This document shows, in pieces, positions 52,393-63,700 of a stretch of 64,000 nt of DNA. The number at the start of each line of letters is the position of its first letter. The stretch's first letter is position 1. Location of the stretch: positions 1,936,830 through 2,000,829 of the forward strand of contig CBDFKX010000002.1 of NCBI GenBank assembly GCA_965249055.1, read 5' to 3'. A program made the position numbers and the translations under genes. Source of the stretch: Candidatus Aldehydirespiratoraceae bacterium. GTDB taxonomy: Bacteria; Actinomycetota; Acidimicrobiia; Acidimicrobiales; Aldehydirespiratoraceae. The notes under the pieces are model-generated. The model was not told the origin of the DNA. It did no database searches and was given only the letters and a program-made list of their open reading frames with translations.

Positions 52393-53388
52393 ATGGCTGA
52401 ACTCCAAGACATTGATTTCACCCTCGAGTACCCTTATACCCGTACCACCGGACCGATAATCGGTCCGTTCCTGACCGGTCTTCGAGACGGTCGAATACTC
52501 GCTACAAGGGTTGGGGACAGAGTGATCTGCCCACCGGTCGAATACGACTCCGACACTGGCGCAACCGTCGGCCCCGAGAACCTCGTCGAGGTTGGTCCCG
52601 GCGGCGAGGTCACCGGCTGGACATGGGTCACACAACACACGTCGAAGCATCCTTTTGAGCATCCTTTCGCGTTCGCCCAGATCAAACTCGACGGGGCGGA
52701 CACGACCATGTTGCATGCCGTCGATGCCGGCTCCGAAGACGCAATGTCAACCGGAATGCGCGTGGTGGTGCGTTTCCGTGGTGAACGGCTCGGCACGATC
52801 AACGATGTCTATTTTATTCCTGGTGACGAGCCGCCGACTGCGCCAAAAGTCGATGACGATGCTGAGCCGGTGATGATCACCGAGCACTTGATCGGCGTGC
52901 GCATACGCGAACCGTTGCTGCCTCATCGCCGTCGCTTCGCCGAGGGGTTGCTGGCAGGAAAGATCATCGGGCAGCGCAGCCCGGCTGACGGCAAGGTACA
53001 TGTGCCTAGCCGCGGCTACGACGCCACTAACCGGGTGCCTATGACCTCGCAGCACGATGTGGAGGTGGCCGATGTCGGCACTGTCACTTCGTTCACCGAG
53101 ATAGTGCCGGTCCAGTATCACGGGCAGACCGAGACAGAGCCTTACATTCGTTGTTCGGTGCTCCTTGACGGTGCTGATACGACGGTTGGAGGAATTGATA
53201 TTCGCGATATCAGCATTGAGGATTTCCGTGTTGGCATGCGCTTGCGGATGGTGTGGCGCGACAGCGGTGACCGCAGGGGGGATCTCGACAATCGCGGCTA
53301 CGGCCTCAACGAAGAGGTGTACGAGCGCTGGGAACCGACGGGCGAGCCTGATGTCGACCCCGATTTGTTGAAGGAGCACAACTTCTAA
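52393..53388 (+). CDS. DUF35 (Zn-ribbon plus OB-fold) protein, double-domain
   Basis: Two OB-fold/DUF35-like halves lie directly upstream of two thiolase-like genes. This is the usual partner arrangement. Confidence 0.65.
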   Translation: MAELQDIDFTLEYPYTRTTGPIIGPFLTGLRDGRILATRVGDRVICPPVEYDSDTGATVGPENLVEVGPGGEVTGWTWVTQHTSKHPFEHPFAFAQIKLDGADTTMLHAVDAGSEDAMSTGMRVVVRFRGERLGTINDVYFIPGDEPPTAPKVDDDAEPVMITEHLIGVRIREPLLPHRRRFAEGLLAGKIIGQRSPADGKVHVPSRGYDATNRVPMTSQHDVEVADVGTVTSFTEIVPVQYHGQTETEPYIRCSVLLDGADTTVGGIDIRDISIEDFRVGMRLRMVWRDSGDRRGDLDNRGYGLNEEVYERWEPTGEPDVDPDLLKEHNF

Positions 53389-54518
53389 TGTCGCAGTCAA
53401 CACTGTCTAAATCAGCACAGCCTCAGTCAGCACTGTCTAAATCAGCACAGGCGAATCGCCACGAGAACGACATTGCCATCGTGGGCTTTGCTCAAACCGA
53501 CGCCCACGTCCGCTACGACGGGCCCGAAGTCGTCCTCATTATGGAATGCGTCAACGCACTGCTAGCCGATGCCGGGATTGAGCGGTACGACGTCGACTTC
53601 ACCATTGCCGGGAGCTGCGACTACCTCAGCGGTATGCCGTTCGCCTTCGTGTCAAACGTCGATGGCATGGGGGCTTGGCCCCCGGTTTATGAATCGCATG
53701 TCGAGATGGACGGTGCCTGGGGGCTGTTCGAAGCGTGGTTGCGCCTGCAGATGGGCGACATTGACATTGCCATGGTGGTGGGCTCGGGGAAGTCCTCCCC
53801 GTGCAACGCCCGTGAGGTTTTCCATCTACAAGCCGATCCTTATGTTGTGGCTCCGCTCGGACTCGACCCCGACGCCATGGCTGGAATTGCGGCCCGCTCG
53901 CTGATCGAGGAGCGCAAGGCAACCGAGGCTGAAATCGCCGAAGTCGTGGCGCGCAGCTACACCGCAGCGGCGAGCAACCCCCATGCCCAGATCCAGAGCA
54001 CGGCCACGGTTGAAGAACTTCTTACCGCTCCCTACGACATGGCGCCGTTGCGGGCCCATGATGTCTCACCCAAAGCAGACGGTGCGGCCGCGCTGCTGAT
54101 CGCGCGTCGAGACCGGGCCCGAGAGATCACCGACAACCCGGTGTGGATCACCGGACTCGACCACCGCATTGAATCACATCACGCGGGATTGCGTGACCTC
54201 ACGGATTCGCCGAGCACCCGGTTGGCAGCCGCAGGATCCGGAGTTGCCGATGGAGCAGTTGATGTGGCCGAGCTACACGTCACCCATGCCCACGAAGAAA
54301 TCATTTTGCGCAACGCCTTGAACCTCGACGGAAGCACCGAGGTGAACCCGTCGGGAGGACCGCTCGCAGGTGATCCAGTCATGGCAACCGGATTGGTCCG
54401 TGTTATCGAAGTCGCACGACGGATCGCCGCTGGTCAAGCTCGTCGGGGAGTAGCCCATGCGTCCTCGGGCGCAGCATTGCAACAAAACTTGCTGTGTGTT
54501 TTAGAAGGAGGAGCCTGA
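53388..54518 (+). CDS. Thiolase-like protein (SCP-x/Ltp type)
   Basis: Thiolase fold, with NPSGGPLAGDPVMATG near the C-terminus. Confidence 0.75.
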   Translation: MSQSTLSKSAQPQSALSKSAQANRHENDIAIVGFAQTDAHVRYDGPEVVLIMECVNALLADAGIERYDVDFTIAGSCDYLSGMPFAFVSNVDGMGAWPPVYESHVEMDGAWGLFEAWLRLQMGDIDIAMVVGSGKSSPCNAREVFHLQADPYVVAPLGLDPDAMAGIAARSLIEERKATEAEIAEVVARSYTAAASNPHAQIQSTATVEELLTAPYDMAPLRAHDVSPKADGAAALLIARRDRAREITDNPVWITGLDHRIESHHAGLRDLTDSPSTRLAAAGSGVADGAVDVAELHVTHAHEEIILRNALNLDGSTEVNPSGGPLAGDPVMATGLVRVIEVARRIAAGQARRGVAHASSGAALQQNLLCVLEGGA

Positions 54519-54519
54519 T

Positions 54520-55677
54520 ATGGCTCGGCCATGCGCAGTCGTAGGTATTGGTCAGACGAAGTACAAGCGTCGCCGCGATGATCTGTCGCTCGACGGTTTG
54601 GTACGAGAGGCCGCTCTGCGGGCCCTTGAAGATGCCGAAGTGAGCTTTGCCGATATTGACGCAGTGGTGCTGGGCAAAGCCCCTGACGCGTTGGAGGGCG
54701 TGATCATGCCCGAGTTGTCCCTAGCCGATGCGCTCGGAGCAGTCGGTAAGCCGATACATCGAGTTCACACGGCCGGATCGGTTGGGGCGTCAACCGCCAT
54801 CTCCGCGGCTGTATTGGTTGAGAGCGGCCGTTACGACACGGTTTTGACGGTCACCTACGAAAAGCAGTCAGAGGGCAACGCCACATGGGCATTGTCGGGC
54901 GGAAAATCAGGTGGCCAGGGAGCCGGTGGTACCTTCGCTCCATGGATTCGAGAGTACATACGGCGTTCGGGAGCGCCAGAACACATTGGCTGGCAGGTAG
55001 CGGTCAAGGACCGCCAGAACGCCCTGAAGAACCAATACGCGCATCTGCATCTCGACGACATCAGCATCGACATGGTGAAGGAATCGCCGATGCTTTGGGA
55101 TCCACTGCATTTTTTGGAGTCGTGCCCTTCCTCAGATGGTGCGGCAGCGATGGTGCTGAGCTGTGAGAACTTGGTTTCCCGCTCGCCGAATCCGCCAGCT
55201 TGGGTCTTGGGACACGCCAAGCGCACCGAGTTTTCGAGTTTCCCCGGGCGTGACACAGTCAAACCCCAAGCAGGCGTCGATTGCGCTGCTGCGCTCTATA
55301 AGGAGGTCGGCATCACTGATCCGCGGCGGCAGATCGACACGGCGGAGTTGTACGTACCGTTCAGTTGGTACGAGCCGATGTGGCTTGAGGGGCATCTGAT
55401 CGCACCGGATGGGCAGGGGTGGAAGATGACCGACGAGGGCGCCACGGCCCTGGACGGGGATTTTCCCGTTAATTGCTCAGGCGGTGTCTTGTCATCCAAC
55501 CCGATTGGTGCTTCGGGAATGATCCGCTGTCTTGAAGCTGCCAATCAGGTGCGTGGCACTGCAGGTGATTATCAGGTTGACGGAGCGCGAGTTGCGCTCG
55601 GCCACGCATATGGGGGCGCGGCTCAGTACTTTGCCATGTGGATCGTGTCCTCGGAACTAGACCCGGTGTTCTCTTGA
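54520..55677 (+). CDS. Thiolase-like protein (SCP-x/Ltp type)
   Basis: Contains GIGQTKYKRR..., ESCPSSDGAAAMVL and NCSGGVLSSNPIGASG. Confidence 0.8.
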   Translation: MARPCAVVGIGQTKYKRRRDDLSLDGLVREAALRALEDAEVSFADIDAVVLGKAPDALEGVIMPELSLADALGAVGKPIHRVHTAGSVGASTAISAAVLVESGRYDTVLTVTYEKQSEGNATWALSGGKSGGQGAGGTFAPWIREYIRRSGAPEHIGWQVAVKDRQNALKNQYAHLHLDDISIDMVKESPMLWDPLHFLESCPSSDGAAAMVLSCENLVSRSPNPPAWVLGHAKRTEFSSFPGRDTVKPQAGVDCAAALYKEVGITDPRRQIDTAELYVPFSWYEPMWLEGHLIAPDGQGWKMTDEGATALDGDFPVNCSGGVLSSNPIGASGMIRCLEAANQVRGTAGDYQVDGARVALGHAYGGAAQYFAMWIVSSELDPVFS

Positions 55678-55760
55678 GCCTGTGTTCTTCAGCCCCCGTG
55701 TTTTCTAGGCACCATATTGTCTAGACCGACCGCACCAAGACCAATGACTGGGGTACCGCT

Positions 55761-56675
55761 ATGACTTCTGAGGTGGCCGATCTTGATGGGCGGGTGGTGA
55801 TCGTCACCGGGGCCGCCAGAGGTTTGGGGCGTGCTCATGTGATGGCTTTCGCGGCGCACGGCGCTCGGGTTGTGGTCAACGATCTTGGCGTTGAGCGCGA
55901 TGGCACACCGTCAACCAGCGACGCTGCGAACGAGGTTGTGGCCGAGATAGTCGCCACTGGAGGCGTTGCGGTCGCGAACGCGGCTGATGTGGCCGATTGG
56001 GACCAAGCCGCGGCGCTGGTTCGTCAAGCGATTGATACCTACGGAGGGCTCGACACGCTGGTCTGCAACGCCGGGTTTCTCCGTGACCGCATGCTCGCGG
56101 GAACGTCGGAGGATGAATGGGACAGCGTCACGCGCGTGCATCTGAAGGGCCATTTCGCTCCCGCACGCCACGCCATTGAGTACTGGCGCGACCGGGCCAA
56201 AGCAGGGGAGCCGGTTACGGCCCGAGTGGTCAACACATCTTCGGGGGCTGGTCTGGCCGGATCAATCGGCCAAGGCAACTATGCGGTAGCCAAGGCCGGG
56301 ATCGCGCTTCTCACCATCCAGCAGGCTGCGGAGTGGGGGCGTTATGGCGTACTTGCCAATGCCATTGCCCCCGATGCTCGCACCCGCATGACCGAGGGCA
56401 TCTTCTACAGCTCTGAGATCCCCGAAGGCTTCGACGAAAAGGCTCCCGAGAACGTATCTCCTTTGGTTGTGTGGTTGGGCAGCGCCTCCTGCGACGTGAC
56501 GGGTCGAACCTTTGAGAACACTGGAGATCAGCTCAACGTTTGCGACGGGTGGCAGAAGGGCCCGGTTGTCTCGGTTGGCGGCCGGCGTATGACGGTCACC
56601 GAAGCGGGTGAGCTGGCCAACCGCTCGATTGCGGGCGAGCGTGCTCCGCAACCGGTGCATGGAGCGCGGAGCTAG
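55761..56675 (+). CDS. SDR-family oxidoreductase
   Basis: Contains VTGAARGLGRA, NAG and YAVAKAG. Confidence 0.85.
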   Translation: MTSEVADLDGRVVIVTGAARGLGRAHVMAFAAHGARVVVNDLGVERDGTPSTSDAANEVVAEIVATGGVAVANAADVADWDQAAALVRQAIDTYGGLDTLVCNAGFLRDRMLAGTSEDEWDSVTRVHLKGHFAPARHAIEYWRDRAKAGEPVTARVVNTSSGAGLAGSIGQGNYAVAKAGIALLTIQQAAEWGRYGVLANAIAPDARTRMTEGIFYSSEIPEGFDEKAPENVSPLVVWLGSASCDVTGRTFENTGDQLNVCDGWQKGPVVSVGGRRMTVTEAGELANRSIAGERAPQPVHGARS

Positions 56676-56686
56676 CGGAGCAGTCG

Positions 56687-57913
56687 ATGGACTTTGATGA
56701 CACCGCTGAGGAAGCCGCGTGGCGTGAGCAATGCCGTGACTTCTTGAGTCGGCACGCTGAGTTGTTGCCCAAAGAAGTTGATCTCAGCCAGAGCTACTGG
56801 GCAAAGCCTCCCAGTGCTGCCGAGAGCGCTGCCTACACGGCACGTTGCCGCAAGTGGCAGCGCACCAAATACGACGCAGGTTGGGCGGGTTTGGCGTGGT
56901 CTACTGAGTACGGGGGGCGCGGGCTAACGGGTCATCTGGCTGGTATTTTCGCTGAGGAGGAAGCCCGTTACGACCTGCCGATGGGCCAGTTTGCACAGTC
57001 GATCGGCATGGCTGGCCCGACGATTATTGCCCATGGCACAGACGCCCAAAAGAGCCGCTATTTGGAACCCATGCTGACGGGAGAGGAAACCTGGTGTCAG
57101 CTATTCTCCGAGCCCGGGGCAGGCTCGGATCTGGCTGGTCTGCGAACGTCTGGCGTGCTTGACGGCGACGAGATCATCGTCAACGGACAGAAGGTTTGGA
57201 CTTCGAGCGCTCGTGAAGCCGCGCATGGCATGTTGTTGGTGCGCACCGATGTTGATCAGCCGAAGCATCGGGGAATCACGTATTTGTTGCTCGATATGAC
57301 TACTCCGGGGATTGATATCCGTCCCCTGAAGCAACCCACGGGGCGTTCGGAGTTCAACGAGGTTTTTCTTGAAAATGTTCGGGTGCCTCTTGACTGTGTT
57401 GTCGGTGGGATCAATCGGGGCTGGGGTCCGATTCTGACCACCCTGAGCAACGAACGAGCTGGGATCGGCGGTCAGGTTTCTTATATTGGCGATGTGATCG
57501 AGTTGGCTCGGCGTTTTGGAGCAGCCGGTGATCCGGTCATTCGCCAGCAGCTCGCGCGCTTGTACACGATTGTTGAGACGATGCGGTTTCTCGGCTATCG
57601 GGTTCGCACGGCAACCTCGCGTGGTGAGCAGCCTGGTCCTGAGAGTTCGGTGCTGAAGCTGGCGGCGTCTCGTCGGTTGGAGATGATGGGTGATTTGTCG
57701 ATGGCGATCATGGGTCCAAGCGCCACGCTTTACGGCAGCGATGCCGTGTTCAATGGGTTTTGGCAGAACTACGCCTTCTTGGGGCAGTGGATGTCTCGCA
57801 TCGGTGGAGGCACCGATCAAGTGCAGCGCAACATCATCGGCGAGAACGTGCTGGGTCTTCCCCAAGAACCCAGGCCCGACAAGGGAATCCCCTTCCGAGA
57901 AATTCCCCATTAA
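56687..57913 (+). CDS. Acyl-CoA dehydrogenase
   Basis: Contains CQLFSEPGAGSDLAGL and VNGQKVWTSSA. It is a paralogue of 29756-30991. Confidence 0.85.
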   Translation: MDFDDTAEEAAWREQCRDFLSRHAELLPKEVDLSQSYWAKPPSAAESAAYTARCRKWQRTKYDAGWAGLAWSTEYGGRGLTGHLAGIFAEEEARYDLPMGQFAQSIGMAGPTIIAHGTDAQKSRYLEPMLTGEETWCQLFSEPGAGSDLAGLRTSGVLDGDEIIVNGQKVWTSSAREAAHGMLLVRTDVDQPKHRGITYLLLDMTTPGIDIRPLKQPTGRSEFNEVFLENVRVPLDCVVGGINRGWGPILTTLSNERAGIGGQVSYIGDVIELARRFGAAGDPVIRQQLARLYTIVETMRFLGYRVRTATSRGEQPGPESSVLKLAASRRLEMMGDLSMAIMGPSATLYGSDAVFNGFWQNYAFLGQWMSRIGGGTDQVQRNIIGENVLGLPQEPRPDKGIPFREIPH

Positions 57914-58791: not shown

Positions 58792-59261
<470 letters not shown>

Positions 59262-59381
59262 AGTCTACCGAATTCATTCGACTGGGCCGAGTTCGCCGAA
59301 ACCGCCGAATTCGCCTCTCTGGTTGGCGCGAGTAATATCTGATCGCGGCGCATCAATGGGAGAGGCAACGGGAGAGGCGAA

Positions 59382-60968
59382 GTGAGCGAACAGATTCTCA
59401 ATGCTACGACGTTCTGGGAACTGCTCGAGCGTCGTACTGCGCTTTCAGGCGACCGGCTGTTCCTAGTCGACGATGCCGGTCGGCAACTCACCTATACAGA
59501 GTTCCGCGACAAAGCCGAAAGAGTTGCGGCAGGTCTGCACGGCTTGGGAATAGCTGAGGGCACTCCGGTCACCTGGGAGTTACCCACTCGGATCGAAACA
59601 ATCGTCTTGAGCTTTGCGCTGTCGCGCCTCGGCGCAGTCCAGAACCCGATTATCCACATCTACCGACATCGAGAGGTCGGATTCTGCATCGCCCAAACGG
59701 GAGCGCGCTTCGTCTTGACACCTGGAGTCTGGGGTGATTTTGACTACCACGCCATGGCAACCGAAGTCAGCCAAGATCTTGATCCCCGACCCCAAATCCT
59801 CGACGGCTATTCGAATCTTCCCGAAGGCGACCCACAGACGCTGCCGGCCGCCCCGACTGATGGCGACGCAGTGCGCTGGATCTACTACACCTCAGGCACC
59901 ACATCAGATCCCAAAGGAGTCAAGCACTCCGACAAGACCCTGATGGCAGCAGGAACTGGGCTGGCTCTGGCACTGGAAACCAACGCCGAAGATATGGGCA
60001 CCATCGCCTTCCCGTACGCCCATATCGGCGGTCCTGACTTCATCGTGATGCTGCTAGCCGACGGCTTCGGGGCGATCCTGATCGAAAAGTTCACTCCCGC
60101 TACGGCGGTGGCTGCCTACGCCGAGCACGGAGCGACGATCGTCGGTGGGTCAACCGCTTTCTACCAGATGTTCTTGGCCCAAGATCAACAACTCGGCGGT
60201 GGATCTATGCCCCGGTTACGAGCCATGGCCGGTGGTGGCGCCCCCAAGCCCCCAGAGATCTTCTTTGAAGTCAAAGAGAAGATGGGCATACCGATCGCGC
60301 ATGGCTATGGCATGACCGAATGCCCGATGATCAGCCAGGGTTCGCCGTCTGACACCGACGAACAACTCGCCCACACCGAGGGTGCGCCGATCAGAGGTTG
60401 CGAGGTGACCATTGTGACAGCCGTTGGCTCCGTCGCGCCGCCGGGTACCGAAGGCGAGGTTCGTGTCACGGGTCCGATGCTGTTCTCGGGTTACACAGAC
60501 ACAAGCCTCAATGAGGAGGCGTTCGATGCACAAGGCCGGTTTTGCACCGGTGACCTCGGAGTCAAACATGCCGATGGTCATGTGACGCTCACCGGGCGTG
60601 TCAAGGACATCATCATCCGCAAAGGCGAGAACATCTCGGCCAAAGAGGTCGAAGATGTCCTCTACTCGCTGCCGTCGGTAGAGAATGCGGCCGTGATCGG
60701 ACTGCCCGACTCCGAACGGGGCGAACGTGTTTGCGCGGTGATCGAGACCGCCGCGGGACATTCCGACTTGACTTTCGAGGAGATGACAGCGGCTTGCCGA
60801 GAGTCTGGACTGATGCTGCAGAAGACCCCCGAGCAACTTGAAATCTATCACGGACCGCTGCCTCGCAATGCCACCATGAAGATCCTCAAATACGAGCTTC
60901 GCGATCAATACAAAGACAAACAATGGCAATACAAAGACAAACAATGGCAATACAAGGACAAACAATGA
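59382..60968 (+). CDS. AMP-dependent acyl-CoA synthetase/ligase with a repeat-encoded C-terminal tail
   Basis: Contains YYTSGTTSDPKGV (AMP-binding motif), GYGMTE and TGDLG. The tail reads QYKDKQW QYKDKQW QYKDKQ. Confidence 0.85.
   Translation: MSEQILNATTFWELLERRTALSGDRLFLVDDAGRQLTYTEFRDKAERVAAGLHGLGIAEGTPVTWELPTRIETIVLSFALSRLGAVQNPIIHIYRHREVGFCIAQTGARFVLTPGVWGDFDYHAMATEVSQDLDPRPQILDGYSNLPEGDPQTLPAAPTDGDAVRWIYYTSGTTSDPKGVKHSDKTLMAAGTGLALALETNAEDMGTIAFPYAHIGGPDFIVMLLADGFGAILIEKFTPATAVAAYAEHGATIVGGSTAFYQMFLAQDQQLGGGSMPRLRAMAGGGAPKPPEIFFEVKEKMGIPIAHGYGMTECPMISQGSPSDTDEQLAHTEGAPIRGCEVTIVTAVGSVAPPGTEGEVRVTGPMLFSGYTDTSLNEEAFDAQGRFCTGDLGVKHADGHVTLTGRVKDIIIRKGENISAKEVEDVLYSLPSVENAAVIGLPDSERGERVCAVIETAAGHSDLTFEEMTAACRESGLMLQKTPEQLEIYHGPLPRNATMKILKYELRDQYKDKQWQYKDKQWQYKDKQ
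60906..60968 (+). repeat. 21-bp tandem repeat x3 at the synthetase 3' end, overlapping the next gene's RBS and start
   Basis: CAATACAAAGACAAACAATGG occurs twice, followed by CAATACAAGGACAAACAATGA. Confidence 0.85.
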
Positions 60969-61348
60969 CCCTGACCATCTATCACAACCAACATTGAAAC
61001 TCGTCAAGCAATGCCGTGGCGGTCGCCACGGAGATGAGCGTCGACTTCACAGAAGTTCGCTACATGAAGGACTTCCCCGACGAAGAAACGCTGCGAGAGT
61101 TGATAGCCAAGCTTGAAGAACCGGTCGAGAACCTGGTGCGCAAGGACGCTCAGTTCGCCAAACTCGGCCTCAACGAAGACGACTACGTCGGCGATGTCGA
61201 TGCCGTCGTTGAGGTGCTCGAGAAGTACCACCGGCTGCTTCAGCGTCCGATTCTCGTCGGGCCTGACAAAGCCATAATCGGACGCCCTTTTGAAGGCGTG
61301 ATGGCTAAGACTCGAGTGGCCGAGATGCTCAGCTCAAAAACGGATTGA
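60965..61348 (+). CDS. ArsC/Spx/YffB-family protein with an in-frame TGA (60995-60997) at the catalytic Cys position. It is either a candidate selenoprotein or a pseudogene.
   Basis: AAGGA-N6-ATG at 60965 gives MTLTIYHNQH-TGA-NSSSNAVAVATEMSVDFTEVRYMKDFP...LLQRPILVGPDKAIIGRP. This aligns with ArsC IYHNPACGTSRN..., with the TGA opposite Cys12. Confidence 0.6.
61014..61031 (+). other. SECIS-like hairpin 16 nt downstream of the in-frame TGA
   Basis: CCGTGGC-GGTC-GCCACGG, a 7-bp GC-rich stem with a GGUC loop. Confidence 0.45.
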
Positions 61349-61355
61349 GCCGGCA

Positions 61356-62702
61356 ATGACCATCGCCGCTCCCGACGTTCATACCAACAATGCGCCTGTG
61401 GGGGAGACCATTGTTTCGGTTGGTCGGGTGAGCAAACCTAGCCAGGTTGACGCCAGCCGATACACAGACCCGGCTTGGGCCCGAATCGAAGAAGAAAAAC
61501 TGTGGCCCACTACTTGGCAGTTGGTATGCACGCTCGACCATGTGTCTGGGTCGGGTGATGCCTTTGTCTACGATGTTGGCCGCCTCTCGATTCTGATAGT
61601 GCGCGGTGACGATGGCGAACTTCGCGCCTTCCAAAACGTGTGTCGACATCGCGGCATGCAGCTTTGCAACGAACATCAACGGGGCCTCACCGAACTGCGC
61701 TGTGTGTTTCACCGCTGGTCATGGAACCTGGCCGGGGAACTGAGGGAGGTGCCGTCACGCAAGGGCTTTGGCGCCTTGCTCAACGATGATTTTCCCCTTT
61801 TCGGCGCCAAGGTCGACACTTGGGGTCCGCTGGTGTTCGTCAATCCTGCTCCTGATGCCGAACCGCTAGCCGACTTCTTGGCGCCTGTTCCTGATGACAT
61901 TGCTTGGGCCGACCTGGACGACTTCCGCTGCAAGGCGCTGATGTCGATCCCGGTCCCGTCCAACTGGAAGACGATCATCGACGGTTTCAGCGAAACCTAC
62001 CATGTGCAGGGAATACACCCCGAGATGTTGCGCATGGTCGACGACGTGAACAGTCCTCAGACAATCTGGGAACGTCACGGCAAGCTCGTGCAACCCTACG
62101 GCTTGGCCAGTCCCCGTCTTCGCGGCGGTGCCACAAATCAGGAGATCTGGGAGGGGTTTGTGGAGGTGATGGGAGGACGCATTGGTCTGAGTGAGCCGGC
62201 CGATGCGGGCGTTTGCCCAGAAGTACCGCCCGGCTCAACTCTGCGCGAGGTGCTGTCCGACATGGTTGTGGATCACTTCGGTGCCACTGAGGGAGTGGAT
62301 CTCAGCCGGTTCGGGCCCGACGAGCTGATGACCATGCAGCAGTACAACCTGTTCCCGAACATCACCGTGCTGGTGTTCGGTGATCTGCTCCAAGTGGTGC
62401 GAGCACGCCCAGGAGCGACTCCTGATGACGGTTACATGGACATCATCGCCTTTGACCGAGTCAACCCTGATGCTGGACGGAAAGAACCGCTGACCGCTGA
62501 AATGGATCCCGGTTCCCACAGTCTGGGACTGGTGCTCGATCAGGACGTCAAAAACCTCAAGCGTGCCCAGCGGGGGCTTCACGCACCGGATTTGACGCAC
62601 CTCACACTGTCGGGCGAGGAATGCCGGATCGTCAACTTGCACCGCAATCTTGACCGTGTGACCGGATGCGACTCCGGTGTCGAACTCGCTTATCTGGACT
62701 GA
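61356..62702 (+). CDS. Rieske-type aromatic ring-hydroxylating oxygenase, alpha subunit
   Basis: Contains CRHRGMQLC...CVFHRWSW, with a catalytic domain containing ETYHVQGIHP. Confidence 0.85.
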   Translation: MTIAAPDVHTNNAPVGETIVSVGRVSKPSQVDASRYTDPAWARIEEEKLWPTTWQLVCTLDHVSGSGDAFVYDVGRLSILIVRGDDGELRAFQNVCRHRGMQLCNEHQRGLTELRCVFHRWSWNLAGELREVPSRKGFGALLNDDFPLFGAKVDTWGPLVFVNPAPDAEPLADFLAPVPDDIAWADLDDFRCKALMSIPVPSNWKTIIDGFSETYHVQGIHPEMLRMVDDVNSPQTIWERHGKLVQPYGLASPRLRGGATNQEIWEGFVEVMGGRIGLSEPADAGVCPEVPPGSTLREVLSDMVVDHFGATEGVDLSRFGPDELMTMQQYNLFPNITVLVFGDLLQVVRARPGATPDDGYMDIIAFDRVNPDAGRKEPLTAEMDPGSHSLGLVLDQDVKNLKRAQRGLHAPDLTHLTLSGEECRIVNLHRNLDRVTGCDSGVELAYLD

Positions 62703-63700
62703 AGGGCTTGTAGCGCCTGAATCATCTCGGCGAGGGCCTCGTTTGTTGATGTGGAGACAGTCAGAGACAGACGGTCTGCGTGGTCGCCGTATTCTTCGCT
62801 CAGCCGCTTGGCGCAATCGGCAGGCGTACCCCGCACCGCCAATAGCTCGACGACATCATCGTCGACGAGTTCGCCCAGCGTTGCCCAGTTCCCGGACTTG
62901 GTTATCTCACGAAGCCGGGGTTGCAAATCGCCGAGTCCGTGGTGGTCGAGCACGACTCGGTAAGCGGGCGTAGAACCATAGAAGGCCAGGTTGAAGCGGA
63001 TTGCTGTGGTTGCCCGCTCGTACTGTTCGTCGGTCAGGCAGGGAGCCGCGATACAGCCAACGTTGAGCGTCAGCGATGAGCGTTCCCTGTCATTACCGGC
63101 GAGACCGGCCTCGATCATCGGTAGTGTCTGTTTCGCCAAGAACGCACCAGTGTTGAACGGATGGATGACGATGCCATCCGCGTGGGCTGCCATCGCCCGG
63201 GTCATGCGGGGGCCGAGCGCTCCCACCCAGATTTCCGGAACGGGATTCTTTAGTGGTGGCGGCACGAAGATTGGGGTCATCAGGTCGACTCGGTAGAACT
63301 CGCTACGGTGCGCAAGTGGTGTGTTGTCACTCCAGTTGGCCCAAATGGCGCGCAGTACCGTGATCAACTCGACCATGCGCTCAACGGGACGGCCCCAGCG
63401 CGATGAGAAGCGCCGTTCGACGTGAGGTTTGATCTGGGTTCCGAGTCCGAGAGCGAAGCGACCTCCGCTGGCCCGCTGGAGATCCCATGCTGAATAGGCG
63501 AGGTGCATCGGCGAACGAGGGAAGGCGATTGCAACGTTGGTGTAGAGGTCGACGTCGAGTTCGGTTGCATGTATCAGCGGAAAGAAGACATCGCTGTTTC
63601 CTTCGAAGGTGAACAGTCCGTCGATCCCGGTGGCGGCCAGGTCGGCGGCGCGTGCAGCGGCGGTGGACAGATCACCGGTGAACGAAACGTCGATCAGCAT
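62690..63700 (-). CDS. LLM-class (probably F420-dependent) oxidoreductase
   Basis: Luciferase-like fold reading GIDGLFTFEGNSDVFFPL...GGRFALGLGTQIKPHVERRF. Confidence 0.8.
   Translation of the reverse strand: MLIDVSFTGDLSTAAARAADLAATGIDGLFTFEGNSDVFFPLIHATELDVDLYTNVAIAFPRSPMHLAYSAWDLQRASGGRFALGLGTQIKPHVERRFSSRWGRPVERMVELITVLRAIWANWSDNTPLAHRSEFYRVDLMTPIFVPPPLKNPVPEIWVGALGPRMTRAMAAHADGIVIHPFNTGAFLAKQTLPMIEAGLAGNDRERSSLTLNVGCIAAPCLTDEQYERATTAIRFNLAFYGSTPAYRVVLDHHGLGDLQPRLREITKSGNWATLGELVDDDVVELLAVRGTPADCAKRLSEEYGDHADRLSLTVSTSTNEALAEMIQALQALQSR

What the first reader, a model, noticed from the sequence alone, without database searches (positions are those of the whole stretch)
60965..61348. ArsC/Spx-family gene with TGA in place of the catalytic cysteine, plus a SECIS-like GGUC hairpin
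A well-placed start (AAGGA-N6-ATG, overlapping the upstream stop as ATGA) opens a frame reading MTLTIYHNQH-TGA-NSSSNAV.... This aligns with the ArsC N-terminus IYHNPACGTSRN, placing the TGA exactly opposite the redox-active Cys. Sixteen nt downstream lies a 7-bp GC-rich hairpin with a GGUC apical loop. As I recall, this is the same loop sequence as the E. coli fdhF SECIS minihelix, though here it sits about 5 nt further from the UGA. Cys/Sec pairs at catalytic positions are the hallmark of bacterial selenoproteins. From memory, ArsC-like selenoproteins have been reported from metagenomes. The alternative is a TGC-to-TGA nonsense mutation.
Basis: partly seen in the sequence, partly recalled or inferred. 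Interest (0 to 1): 0.75.

Follow-up and report, generated by a model that had tools for sequence, protein, structure and literature searches.

The report
Selenocysteine-containing ArsC-type arsenate reductase gene
This is a real, conserved gene for an arsenate-reductase-like enzyme that most likely uses selenocysteine, encoded by an in-frame UGA with a downstream RNA hairpin, in place of the catalytic cysteine; the family has been known from marine metagenomes since 2005 but is still mis-annotated as a truncated protein.

Summary
The TGA aligns with catalytic Cys12 of plasmid R773 ArsC, and His8, Ser15 and the Arg60/94/107 triad are kept.

All 36 TGA-form loci recovered (about 50-99% protein identity), mostly marine and sponge-associated Acidimicrobiales MAGs, have TGA at this codon. 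The 10 upstream codons are under purifying selection. The hairpin codons show almost no synonymous variation (0.06 against 0.48 elsewhere in the gene, p=5e-5), and two stem pairs show compensatory changes.

Homologues at 45-58% identity have TGC (Cys) and no such hairpin. The element meets all four published bacterial SECIS criteria.

This matches the "arsenate reductase, UxxS" selenoprotein family described from the Sargasso Sea (2005) and GOS (2008), so it is a new member of a known kind. It is not a pseudogene.

The selA, selB, selC and selD genes could not be checked. They are absent from the 0.6 Mb I could read, and the complete genomes were out of reach. Arsenate reduction is inferred from conserved residues only. 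No ars operon is seen in the parts of the neighbourhood that were annotated.

The parts
60954..60958 (+). Shine-Dalgarno-like AAGGA, 6 nt before the ATG
   Evidence: Sequence. The same AAGGA(G/C)AAACA-ATG junction is present in the close orthologues.
60965..61348 (+). Full coding sequence of the ArsC-family selenoprotein: 127 codons including Sec11, stop TGA at 61346-61348
   Evidence: Translation. Pfam PF03960 scores 40.5 bits against a cut-off of 24. Alignment to R773 ArsC structures, E = 7e-11. Ungapped orthologue alignment.
60995..60997 (+). In-frame TGA read as the Sec codon (residue 11), opposite Cys12 of R773 ArsC; first position of the UxxS motif (U11-N12-S13-S14)
   Evidence: TGA is invariant in all 31 unique orthologue sequences and in the divergent L036, L038, L042 and L043. 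Cys (TGC/TGT) is found in L040, L041 and L035.
61014..61031 (+). bSECIS upper hairpin: 5' arm 61014-61020, GGUC loop 61021-61024, 3' arm 61025-61031
   Evidence: Folds at -12.6 kcal/mol. 98.1% of cells are paired in 30 sequences, and 2 pairs show compensatory double changes; 0 of 500 shuffles reach the observed covariation score. Synonymous diversity is 0.06 against 0.48 in the rest of the gene.
61000..61038 (+). Possible lower helix (61000-61005 with 61033-61038) flanking the hairpin; weakly supported
   Evidence: In the single-sequence MFE. One pair is broken in 10 of 28 sequences, and RNAalifold does not predict the helix.
61016..61018 (+). GTG inside the hairpin 5' arm that gene callers use as the start, producing the truncated 110-aa database proteins; an annotation artefact
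   Evidence: 119 of the 120 listed database homologues are 90-136 aa (mostly 100-114) and cover only 71-87% of the query; the sequences inspected begin MAVAT....
60983..60985 (+). His7 codon, equivalent to His8 of R773 ArsC
   Evidence: Alignment. Invariant in orthologues.
61139..61141 (+). Arg59 codon, equivalent to Arg60 of R773 ArsC (oxyanion-binding triad)
   Evidence: Alignment. Invariant LVRKD in all orthologues.
61244..61246 (+). Arg94 codon, equivalent to Arg94 of R773 ArsC
   Evidence: Alignment. Invariant L(Q/E)RP in orthologues.
61283..61285 (+). Arg107 codon, equivalent to Arg107 of R773 ArsC
   Evidence: Alignment. Invariant GRP in orthologues.
60906..60967 (+). 21-nt tandem repeat (3.0 copies) across the gene junction. 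It duplicates the SD and ATG of arsC in frame (extra ATGs at 60923 and 60944) and adds KDKQWQY heptads to the upstream protein.
   Evidence: TRF. Copy number differs between orthologous loci, from 1 to about 9.
59382..60968 (+). Upstream gene: AMP-binding acyl-CoA synthetase-like enzyme, whose stop overlaps the arsC start (ATGA)
   Evidence: Pfam PF00501 and PF13193. Syntenic in most loci.
58923..59261 (+). P-II signal-transduction protein gene, conserved upstream neighbour and possible first gene of the operon; promoter-like site at 58857-58886
   Evidence: Pfam PF00543. Synteny. Promoter scan.
61356..62702 (+). Downstream gene, 7 nt after the arsC stop: Rieske-type ring-hydroxylating oxygenase alpha subunit
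   Evidence: Pfam PF00355 and PF00848. Syntenic in most loci.

Best explanation
The region 60965-61348 encodes a 127-residue ArsC-family (R773 / glutaredoxin-coupled type) oxyanion reductase whose catalytic nucleophile is selenocysteine.

**Decoding (inferred from the E. coli paradigm).** Translation starts at ATG 60965, translationally coupled to the upstream acyl-CoA synthetase gene. UGA 60995 is recoded as Sec. A SelB.GTP.Sec-tRNA(Sec) complex would bind the GGUC-loop hairpin at 61014-61031, 16 nt downstream, and deliver Sec to the ribosomal A site.

**Catalysis (inferred from conserved residues).** The selenolate of Sec11 is positioned by His7, Ser14 and the Arg59/Arg94/Arg107 oxyanion pocket. 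It would attack arsenate, or a similar oxyanion, to form a Se-As adduct. A low-molecular-weight thiol plus a glutaredoxin- or mycoredoxin-like protein would then resolve the adduct and release arsenite.

**What is shown.** The reading frame, the Sec/Cys pair, selection on the peptide upstream of the UGA, and RNA-level selection on the hairpin.

**What is inferred.** Sec rather than another residue at the UGA, the role of SelB, the substrate, and the thiol partner.
For: 1. **Family and active site.** PF03960 is above its cut-off. The best NCBIfam match is TIGR00014 arsC. The full-length alignment to the R773 ArsC structures puts the TGA on Cys12 and keeps His8, Ser15, Arg60, Arg94 and Arg107.
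2. **TGA conservation.** TGA is invariant in 31 unique orthologous nucleotide sequences from 34 loci. It is also present in more distant homologues, down to 50% identity and in low-GC genomes.
3. **Upstream peptide.** Codons -7 to -1 vary synonymously (ACC/ACG/ACT, ATC/ATT, TAT/TAC, CAA/CAG) while the peptide TIYHN stays fixed. No other gene covers these 30 nt.
4. **Hairpin codons.** Codons +6 to +12 have synonymous heterozygosity of 0.06 against 0.48 for four-fold-or-more degenerate codons elsewhere in the gene (Mann-Whitney p = 5e-5). 98% of cells are paired. There are G-C to A-U (L017) and G-C to U-A (L042, L043) compensatory changes plus wobble changes, and 0 of 500 shuffles reach the covariation score. 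The GC/CG closing pairs and the GGUC loop are invariant.
5. **bSECIS model.** All four constraints quoted in PMC13188914 are met: 4-nt loop, 7-bp stem, GG at loop positions 1-2, 23 nt from UGA to loop, and -12.6 kcal/mol.
6. **Cys forms.** Homologues with CxxS exist at 45-58% identity. Their DNA has TGC and no GGUC hairpin.
7. **Known family.** Arsenate reductase with a UxxS motif is a published selenoprotein family.
8. **Sec use elsewhere.** Sec machinery is documented in the same class, Acidimicrobiia, in Actinomarina. One contig carrying a Sec-arsC homologue (L043) also carries a peroxiredoxin gene with TGA at the peroxidatic Cys.
Against: - **Machinery not seen.** No selA, selB or selD homologue and no tRNA-Sec was found in the window or in the other loci held, 0.6 Mb in total. 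This is uninformative for genomes of 3-4 Mb, but it means the machinery is unverified.
- **No Rfam support.** Rfam has no hit; bacterial SECIS elements are poorly represented there.
- **Below the equivalog cut-off.** TIGR00014 scores 72.5 bits against a cut-off of 106.
- **No arsenic context.** No arsB, acr3 or arsR is seen among the called genes of L036 and L038 or among the seven window neighbours I scanned. The neighbours are P-II, an acyl-CoA synthetase, a Rieske oxygenase and a luciferase-like monooxygenase. Arsenate as the physiological substrate is therefore uncertain.
- **A Gly variant.** One TARA scaffold (L039) has GGA (Gly) at the position while keeping the hairpin.
Confidence: 0.88

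Rival explanations
1. The TGA is a nonsense mutation or a sequencing error in a Cys-type arsC, making it a pseudogene.
For: A single T-to-A or C-to-A change in TGT or TGC would give TGA. Database gene calls treat it as a stop.
Against: TGA sits at the same codon in every one of the 36 independent TGA-form loci, from many species and assemblies. The rest of the gene is intact, and both flanks are under purifying selection.
Confidence: 0.01
2. UGA is a genuine stop. The functional product is the 110-aa protein starting at GTG 61016, as annotated in public databases, and the 10-codon upstream ORF is a leader peptide or is untranslated.
For: All database predictions use this start. A GTG or TTG codon is present at that spot in every TGA-form locus.
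Against: - The truncated product would lack the first beta-strand and the whole HNxxC/U active-site loop of the ArsC fold.
- The upstream peptide is exactly the ArsC N-terminal motif and evolves under amino-acid constraint.
- The GTG/TTG codon is fixed as part of the hairpin stem and has no Shine-Dalgarno sequence in front.
- Cys homologues are full length.
Confidence: 0.03
3. The UGA is recoded, but to something other than Sec. Examples are Cys via a SelB-dependent Cys-tRNA variant, or Trp, Cys or Arg by hairpin-stimulated near-cognate read-through.
For: The Sec biosynthesis genes were not seen. From my own knowledge, natural SECIS-directed Cys insertion has been described in a few bacteria.
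Against: - The element fits the SelB-type bSECIS model, with the same GGUC loop as E. coli fdhF.
- The family is a recognised selenoprotein family.
- A lineage able to use Cys would be expected to fix TGC, as its 45-58% identical relatives do.
Confidence: 0.05
4. A rival about function only: it is a selenoprotein with the ArsC fold, but its physiological role is not arsenate detoxification. It would be a housekeeping redox or oxyanion enzyme linked to the conserved P-II / acyl-CoA synthetase / oxygenase neighbourhood.
For: - Below the TIGR00014 equivalog cut-off.
- No ars genes seen nearby.
- Stable synteny with P-II and an AMP-binding enzyme across 66-99% identical genomes, with translational coupling (ATGA) to the synthetase gene.
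- Reviews state that the family's biology is uncharacterised.
Against: The whole arsenate-binding constellation (His8, Ser15, Arg60, Arg94, Arg107) of R773 ArsC is invariant. Chromosomal arsC genes outside ars operons are common (my own knowledge).
Confidence: 0.35

Closest known systems
"Arsenate reductase (ArsC) 1", the UxxS selenoprotein family of Zhang, Fomenko & Gladyshev 2005 (Sargasso Sea, 14 sequences) and Zhang & Gladyshev 2008 (GOS, 77 sequences); listed in the 2022 and 2026 reviews with representative MBT3519430.1
   Same: pfam03960/COG1393 domain. Sec in a UxxS motif at the catalytic Cys position. A stem-loop with G in a small apical loop downstream of the UGA. Marine origin. Many Cys homologues.
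   Different: I found nothing that differs. I could not retrieve the published sequences to measure identity. Here the family is tied to named genomes (Ca. Aldehydirespiratoraceae and other Acidimicrobiales) and to a conserved gene neighbourhood. It scores below the TIGR00014 cut-off that the 2026 review associates with the family.
Plasmid R773 / E. coli ArsC (glutaredoxin-coupled arsenate reductase; PDB 1i9d, 1jzw)
   Same: Same fold by sequence (E = 7e-11 over residues 3-113). Same active-site residues: His8, Ser15, Arg60, Arg94 and Arg107.
   Different: The nucleophile is Sec instead of Cys12. Identity is roughly 30% by eye from the alignment. It is not in an ars operon, and the thiol partner in Acidimicrobiia is unknown.
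E. coli fdhF SECIS element
   Same: A hairpin inside the coding region just after the UGA, with an identical GGUC apical loop closed by G-C-rich pairs.
   Different: The loop starts at nt 27 instead of nt 22 from the U of UGA. There is no bulged U in the upper stem. The stem sequence differs. The lower helix is not conserved here.
"Arsenate reductase 2" / arsenate reductase-like UxxC selenoprotein (cd03032, NF041106) and Spx/MgsR regulators
   Same: ArsC-superfamily fold, with Sec or Cys at the same N-terminal position.
   Different: Those proteins have a UxxC or CxxC dithiol-type motif. This one has UxxS and the Arg triad. NF041106 was not among the six NCBIfam families returned at E <= 0.01, and TIGR01617 (Spx/MgsR) scored 48.9 bits against a cut-off of 75.

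Membership tests
Bacterial selenoprotein gene (UGA-Sec with bSECIS) | In-frame UGA aligned with a (catalytic) Cys in homologues | tested here: met
   TGA lies opposite Cys12 of R773 ArsC. Cys forms P0121, P0128, P0129, P0149 and P0153 have CxxS. TGC is seen in L040 and L041, and TGT in L035.
Bacterial selenoprotein gene (UGA-Sec with bSECIS) | UGA and coding potential on both sides conserved among orthologues | tested here: met
   31 unique sequences from 34 loci all have TGA. Variation is synonymous-only in codons -7 to -3. The same holds in the divergent L036, L038, L042 and L043.
Bacterial selenoprotein gene (UGA-Sec with bSECIS) | bSECIS model: 3-9 nt apical loop, 4-16 bp upper stem, G in the first two loop positions, 16-37 nt from UGA to loop, MFE <= -7.5 kcal/mol (PMC13188914) | tested here: met
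   4-nt GGUC loop, 7-bp stem, 23-nt spacing, -12.6 kcal/mol. The helix is supported by conservation and by 2 compensatory pairs.
Bacterial selenoprotein gene (UGA-Sec with bSECIS) | selA, selB, selC (tRNA-Sec) and selD present in the same genome | not testable with these tools
   None was found in the window or the 43 loci held, 0.6 Mb in total. The queries were validated as SelA, SelB and SelD by Pfam.
Bacterial selenoprotein gene (UGA-Sec with bSECIS) | Selenium actually incorporated at the UGA | not testable with these tools
   Needs 75Se labelling or mass spectrometry.
ArsC family, R773 / glutaredoxin-coupled arsenate reductase | Pfam PF03960 domain above the gathering score | tested here: met
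   40.5 bits against a cut-off of 24, E = 3.5e-10, with U replaced by C in the query.
ArsC family, R773 / glutaredoxin-coupled arsenate reductase | NCBIfam TIGR00014 (arsC equivalog) curated cut-off | tested here: not met
   72.5 bits against a cut-off of 106.05. It is the best-scoring family but falls below the threshold.
ArsC family, R773 / glutaredoxin-coupled arsenate reductase | Active-site residues Cys12 (here Sec), His8, Ser15, Arg60, Arg94 and Arg107 | tested here: met
   Residue-by-residue alignment to 1jzw and 1i9d. Invariant in all orthologues.
ArsC family, R773 / glutaredoxin-coupled arsenate reductase | Arsenic-resistance genomic context (arsR, arsB/acr3) or demonstrated arsenate reductase activity | tested here: not met
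   Context only. No such Pfam families appear among the called genes of L036 and L038 or among the seven window neighbours scanned. Activity cannot be tested here.
Spx/MgsR RNA-polymerase-binding regulators | N-terminal CxxC redox switch and the TIGR01617 cut-off | tested here: not met
   The motif is UxxS. TIGR01617 scores 48.9 bits against a cut-off of 75.05.
Published "ArsC 1 (UxxS)" selenoprotein family | pfam03960 domain, UxxS motif and a downstream SECIS-like stem-loop | tested here: met
   compared with the family descriptions in PMC1088965 and PMC2398784.
Published "ArsC 1 (UxxS)" selenoprotein family | Direct sequence similarity to the published members (AACY01238341, MBT3519430.1) | not testable with these tools
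   Those sequences could not be retrieved.

The most novel reading that the evidence does not exclude
The Sec-ArsC of marine Acidimicrobiales is not an arsenic-resistance accessory gene. It would be a core, operon-embedded selenoenzyme, co-transcribed and translationally coupled with a P-II signalling protein and an acyl-CoA synthetase, whose real substrate or role differs from classical arsenate detoxification. The nearly identical GGC-GGUC-GCC SECIS found on a very different, low-GC contig (L043, taxon not determined) would then reflect transfer of the gene together with its recoding signal.
Probability: 0.15. Interest if true: 0.5.

Novelty: new member of a known kind. Interest (0 to 1): 0.3.

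Why it matters
- **Annotation.** 119 of the 120 listed database homologues (at least 63% identity) are called as truncated 90-136 aa proteins that lack the active site. One further full-length homologue is the Gly variant P0049. Functional profiles of these abundant marine and sponge-associated Actinobacteria therefore miss a selenoenzyme, and with it the Sec trait.
- **Anchoring.** A selenoprotein family known only from anonymous metagenome reads is now tied to named genomes, including complete chromosomes, and to a conserved gene neighbourhood.
- **A usable SECIS dataset.** The hairpin is an unusually clean natural example: an invariant GGUC loop with compensatory stem changes. It could seed a covariance model for bacterial SECIS elements, which Rfam lacks.
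- **Limits.** It does not change the understanding of Sec decoding or of ArsC chemistry.

Tried and rejected
- **Rfam.** A gathering-threshold scan of the window gave no hit.
- **tRNA-Sec.** ARAGORN on the window and 32 loci found no tRNA at all.
- **sel genes.** phmmer with E. coli SelA, SelB and SelD sequences, recalled from memory and then validated by Pfam, against six-frame translations of everything held found nothing.
- **Reaching the source genome.** An exact-protein look-up of the window's own 110-aa call found no record. I judged a word-indexed protein search with E. coli Sel proteins unlikely to list Acidimicrobiales hits among the best 120, so I did not spend it.
- **Other SECIS-like sites.** A scan for other TGA plus GGUC-loop hairpins, and for the GGCGGTCGCC core, in the window and loci found only chance sites. 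None had ORF support, or they lay antisense to real genes, for example L017 8838 and 9192.
- **Other TGA-split genes.** A codon-usage scan of the window found no convincing second candidate.
- **Lower SECIS helix.** The helix seen in the single-sequence fold is not supported by the alignment, so I rejected it as part of the conserved element.
- **Supplementary tables.** The tables of the sponge-Actinobacteriota paper, checked for selA, selB and selD KO counts, are not held.
- **Spx-type regulator reading.** Rejected, because the motif is UxxS with the Arg triad.
Full report
**1. What is in the sequence**

- AAGGA lies at 60954-60958, six nucleotides before ATG 60965.
- The ATG overlaps the TGA stop of the upstream 528-aa ORF (59382-60968) as ATGA.
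- The frame reads MTLTIYHNQH, then TGA (60995-60997), then NSSSNAVAVATEM..., and runs without further stops to TGA 61346-61348.
- After a 16-nt spacer come CCGTGGC (61014-61020), GGTC (61021-61024) and GCCACGG (61025-61031), a perfect 7-bp hairpin.

On its own the hairpin folds at -12.6 kcal/mol (z = -3.7; 1 of 200 shuffles folds as well). The surrounding 61 nt as a whole are not remarkable (z = -1.8). Stability alone would therefore not carry the argument.

**2. What the protein is**

I replaced the TGA by Cys for searching.
- The product matches Pfam ArsC (PF03960) at 40.5 bits against a cut-off of 24.
- Its best NCBIfam match is TIGR00014 arsC, at 72.5 bits. This is below the equivalog cut-off of 106. 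The Spx/MgsR models score lower still.
- phmmer against PDB sequences aligns residues 3-113 with the plasmid R773 arsenate reductase structures (1jzw, 1i9d; E = 7e-11).
- In that alignment the TGA falls on catalytic Cys12. His8, Ser15, Arg60, Arg94 and Arg107 are all matched: His7, Ser14, Arg59, Arg94 and Arg107 here.

The motif is therefore UxxS with a complete arsenate-binding pocket. This is an ArsC-type enzyme, not an Spx-type CxxC regulator.

**3. Orthologues**

- A scan of one genome per GTDB species returned 21 loci, all from Acidimicrobiales or Acidimicrobiia MAGs. They include Candidatus Aldehydirespiratoraceae, several closed 3-4 Mb chromosomes, sponge-derived bins, and a Microthrix-like MAG.
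- A metagenome scan added 13 loci of the Sec clade, one of them cut off before the TGA, and one distant Cys form.
- Every one of the 34 loci that span the site has TGA at the same codon. The alignment is ungapped and contains 31 distinct nucleotide sequences.
- More distant homologues were fetched through their truncated database proteins. L036 is 64% identical to the full query and lies on a 3.3-Mb contig. L038 comes from a low-GC 2.06-Mb contig. L042 and L043 are 50-55% identical. All also have TGA and the hairpin.
- In the 5.8-billion-protein database, 119 of the 120 best hits are 90-136 aa (mostly 100-114) and cover only 71-87% of the query. The sequences I inspected start at the GTG or TTG that lies inside the hairpin. 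Public annotation treats the UGA as a stop and reports a protein without its active site.

**4. Selection on the peptide upstream of the UGA**

Codons -7 to -1 show synonymous variation: ACC/ACG/ACT, ATC/ATT, TAT/TAC, CAC/CAT and CAA/CAG. The amino acids T-I-Y-H-N stay invariant or nearly so.

These 30 nt lie beyond the stop of the upstream gene. The only constraint that explains the pattern is translation in this frame, continuous with the rest of ArsC. This excludes the pseudogene and sequencing-error readings. It also makes the truncated protein starting at GTG 61016 very unlikely.

**5. Selection on the RNA hairpin**

- The seven codons that form the hairpin (+6 to +12: A V A V A T E) have mean synonymous heterozygosity of 0.06. 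Four-fold-or-more degenerate codons in the rest of the gene have 0.48 (Mann-Whitney p = 5e-5).
- L038 comes from a genome with AT-rich codon usage but still has GTGGCGGTCGCCAC.
- In a 30-sequence alignment, 98.1% of stem cells are paired. Sliding the 3' partner by 1-3 columns drops this to 29-71%.
- Two pairs show changes on both sides that keep the pair: G-C to A-U in L017, and G-C to U-A in L042 and L043. In L042 and L043 the amino acids also change, from V..T to L..E. Eight further cells are G-U wobbles.
- None of 500 shuffles reaches the observed covariation score or the observed paired fraction.
- The loop GGUC and the two closing pairs never vary.
- A lower helix that appears in the single-sequence fold is not conserved.

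**6. Sec/Cys pair**

An exhaustive search of 1.8 billion cluster representatives found full-length homologues at 45-58% identity with Cys at the position. Examples are ...YHYPHCHSS......YHNPNCNSS... and ...YHNPHCNSS....

I read the DNA of two of them (L040, L041) and of a distant one (L035). They have TGC or TGT and no GGUC hairpin at the corresponding place. The hairpin goes with the UGA, not with the protein family.

**7. Fit to the bacterial SECIS model**

The consensus model quoted in the 2026 review (PMC13188914) sets four requirements:
- a 3-9 nt apical loop and a 4-16 bp upper stem;
- a G in the first two loop positions;
- 16-37 nt between the UGA and the loop;
- MFE of -7.5 kcal/mol or lower.

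Here the loop is 4 nt (GGUC), the stem is 7 bp, the spacing is 23 nt and the MFE is -12.6 kcal/mol. All four are met.

I verified the E. coli fdhF element against 5,420 E. coli records. It has the same GGUC loop, starting at nt 22 from the U of UGA, against nt 27 here.

**8. Comparison with the literature**

- "Arsenate reductase" with a UxxS motif (COG1393 / pfam03960) was reported as a new selenoprotein family from the Sargasso Sea, with 14 sequences and a SECIS figure (PMC1088965).
- It was found again in the GOS data as "ArsC 1, pfam03960, UxxS": 77 sequences in 23 samples, with 784 Cys homologues (PMC2398784).
- It is listed in the 2022 and 2026 reviews, which note that its biology is uncharacterised.
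- A separate UxxC "ArsC 2 / arsenate reductase-like" family also exists. The present gene is of the UxxS type.
- Sec machinery has been described in the same class, Acidimicrobiia, in Actinomarina (bioRxiv 10.64898/2026.04.03.716425).
- The family Aldehydirespiratoraceae (formerly UBA11606) comprises sponge symbionts and free-living marine bacteria (PMC11706023).

The gene is therefore a further member of a known selenoprotein family, now placed in named genomes.

**9. What could not be shown**

- The window and the 43 loci held (0.6 Mb) contain no tRNA and no SelA, SelB or SelD homologue. The query sequences were confirmed as bona fide family members.
- This says nothing about genomes of 3-4 Mb, and the tools gave no further access to those chromosomes.
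- As indirect support, the 12-kb contig L043 carries a Sec-arsC homologue and, 2 kb away, a BCP-type peroxiredoxin gene. That gene is split into two gene calls by a TGA at the peroxidatic cysteine (ALTGG-U-TKQAC, the known TxxU form), with a small G-loop hairpin downstream.

Arsenate as the substrate is inferred from the conserved pocket only.
- No ars genes are seen among the neighbours annotated.
- The conserved neighbourhood is P-II, AMP-binding acyl-CoA synthetase, arsC(Sec), Rieske oxygenase and a convergent luciferase-like monooxygenase.
- A promoter-like site lies in front of the P-II gene.

**10. Verdict**

- I put the probability that this is a functional UGA-recoded (Sec) ArsC-family gene at about 0.88.
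- Most of the remainder goes to recoding to something other than Sec (about 0.05) and to a truncated product (about 0.03).
- Whether the enzyme's physiological job is arsenate reduction is much less certain, roughly 0.6.
- The finding rediscovers a known family, so interest is modest. Its practical value lies in correcting a systematic mis-annotation and in providing a clean, comparative SECIS dataset.

Noticed in passing
window 60906-60967; compare L001-L015 just upstream of the arsC start: A 21-nt tandem repeat (CAATACAAAGACAAACAATGG, 3.0 copies) sits exactly on the synthetase/arsC junction. Each copy adds a KDKQWQY heptad to the synthetase C-terminus and duplicates the arsC Shine-Dalgarno sequence and ATG in frame (extra ATGs at 60923 and 60944). 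Copy number differs between related genomes: 1 in L003, L007, L010 and L012; 2 in L002, L004, L006 and L014; 3 in the window and L009; 4 in L001; about 9 in L015.
   Followed up: partly
L043 6395-6892 (minus strand): A BCP/PrxQ-type peroxiredoxin gene is split into two gene calls by an in-frame TGA at the peroxidatic Cys position (ALTGG-U-TKQAC, TxxU), with a small G-loop hairpin downstream. It lies 2 kb from a Sec-arsC homologue on the same 12-kb low-GC contig, so it is a second probable selenoprotein gene there.
   Followed up: partly
L039 46-414 (TARA scaffold, protein P0049): One homologue has GGA-CAG (Gly-Gln) where all the others have TGA-AAC or TGA-ACC, yet it keeps the GGUC hairpin. 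This may be a lineage that lost Sec, leaving an inactive or repurposed protein, or an assembly artefact. It is a single 1.2-kb contig.
   Followed up: no
L042 83-151 and L043 4012-4080: Sec-arsC homologues at only 50-55% identity, one from a low-GC genome, carry almost the same SECIS (CCUUGGC-GGUC-GCCGAGG). The only differences are a compensatory G-C to U-A change and a wobble. The recoding signal is more conserved than the protein.
   Followed up: partly
window 58923-63700 and the loci: The gene order P-II, AMP-binding acyl-CoA synthetase, arsC(Sec), Rieske oxygenase and a convergent luciferase-like monooxygenase is conserved across most Acidimicrobiales loci. In L017 and L038 the P-II gene lies directly upstream of arsC. 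A P-II gene with no nitrogen-metabolism neighbour seen among the genes annotated here is unusual.
   Followed up: partly
window 53388-57913: The genes upstream are thiolase-like, short-chain dehydrogenase and acyl-CoA dehydrogenase. Together with the synthetase, the Rieske oxygenase and the luciferase-like monooxygenase, this looks like a lipid or steroid-type catabolic cluster.
   Followed up: no
database proteins P0001-P0120: Essentially all public gene calls for this clade start at the GTG or TTG inside the SECIS stem and are named "arsenate reductase" or "ArsC/Spx/MgsR family protein", although they lack the catalytic residue. This is a systematic annotation error.
   Followed up: yes
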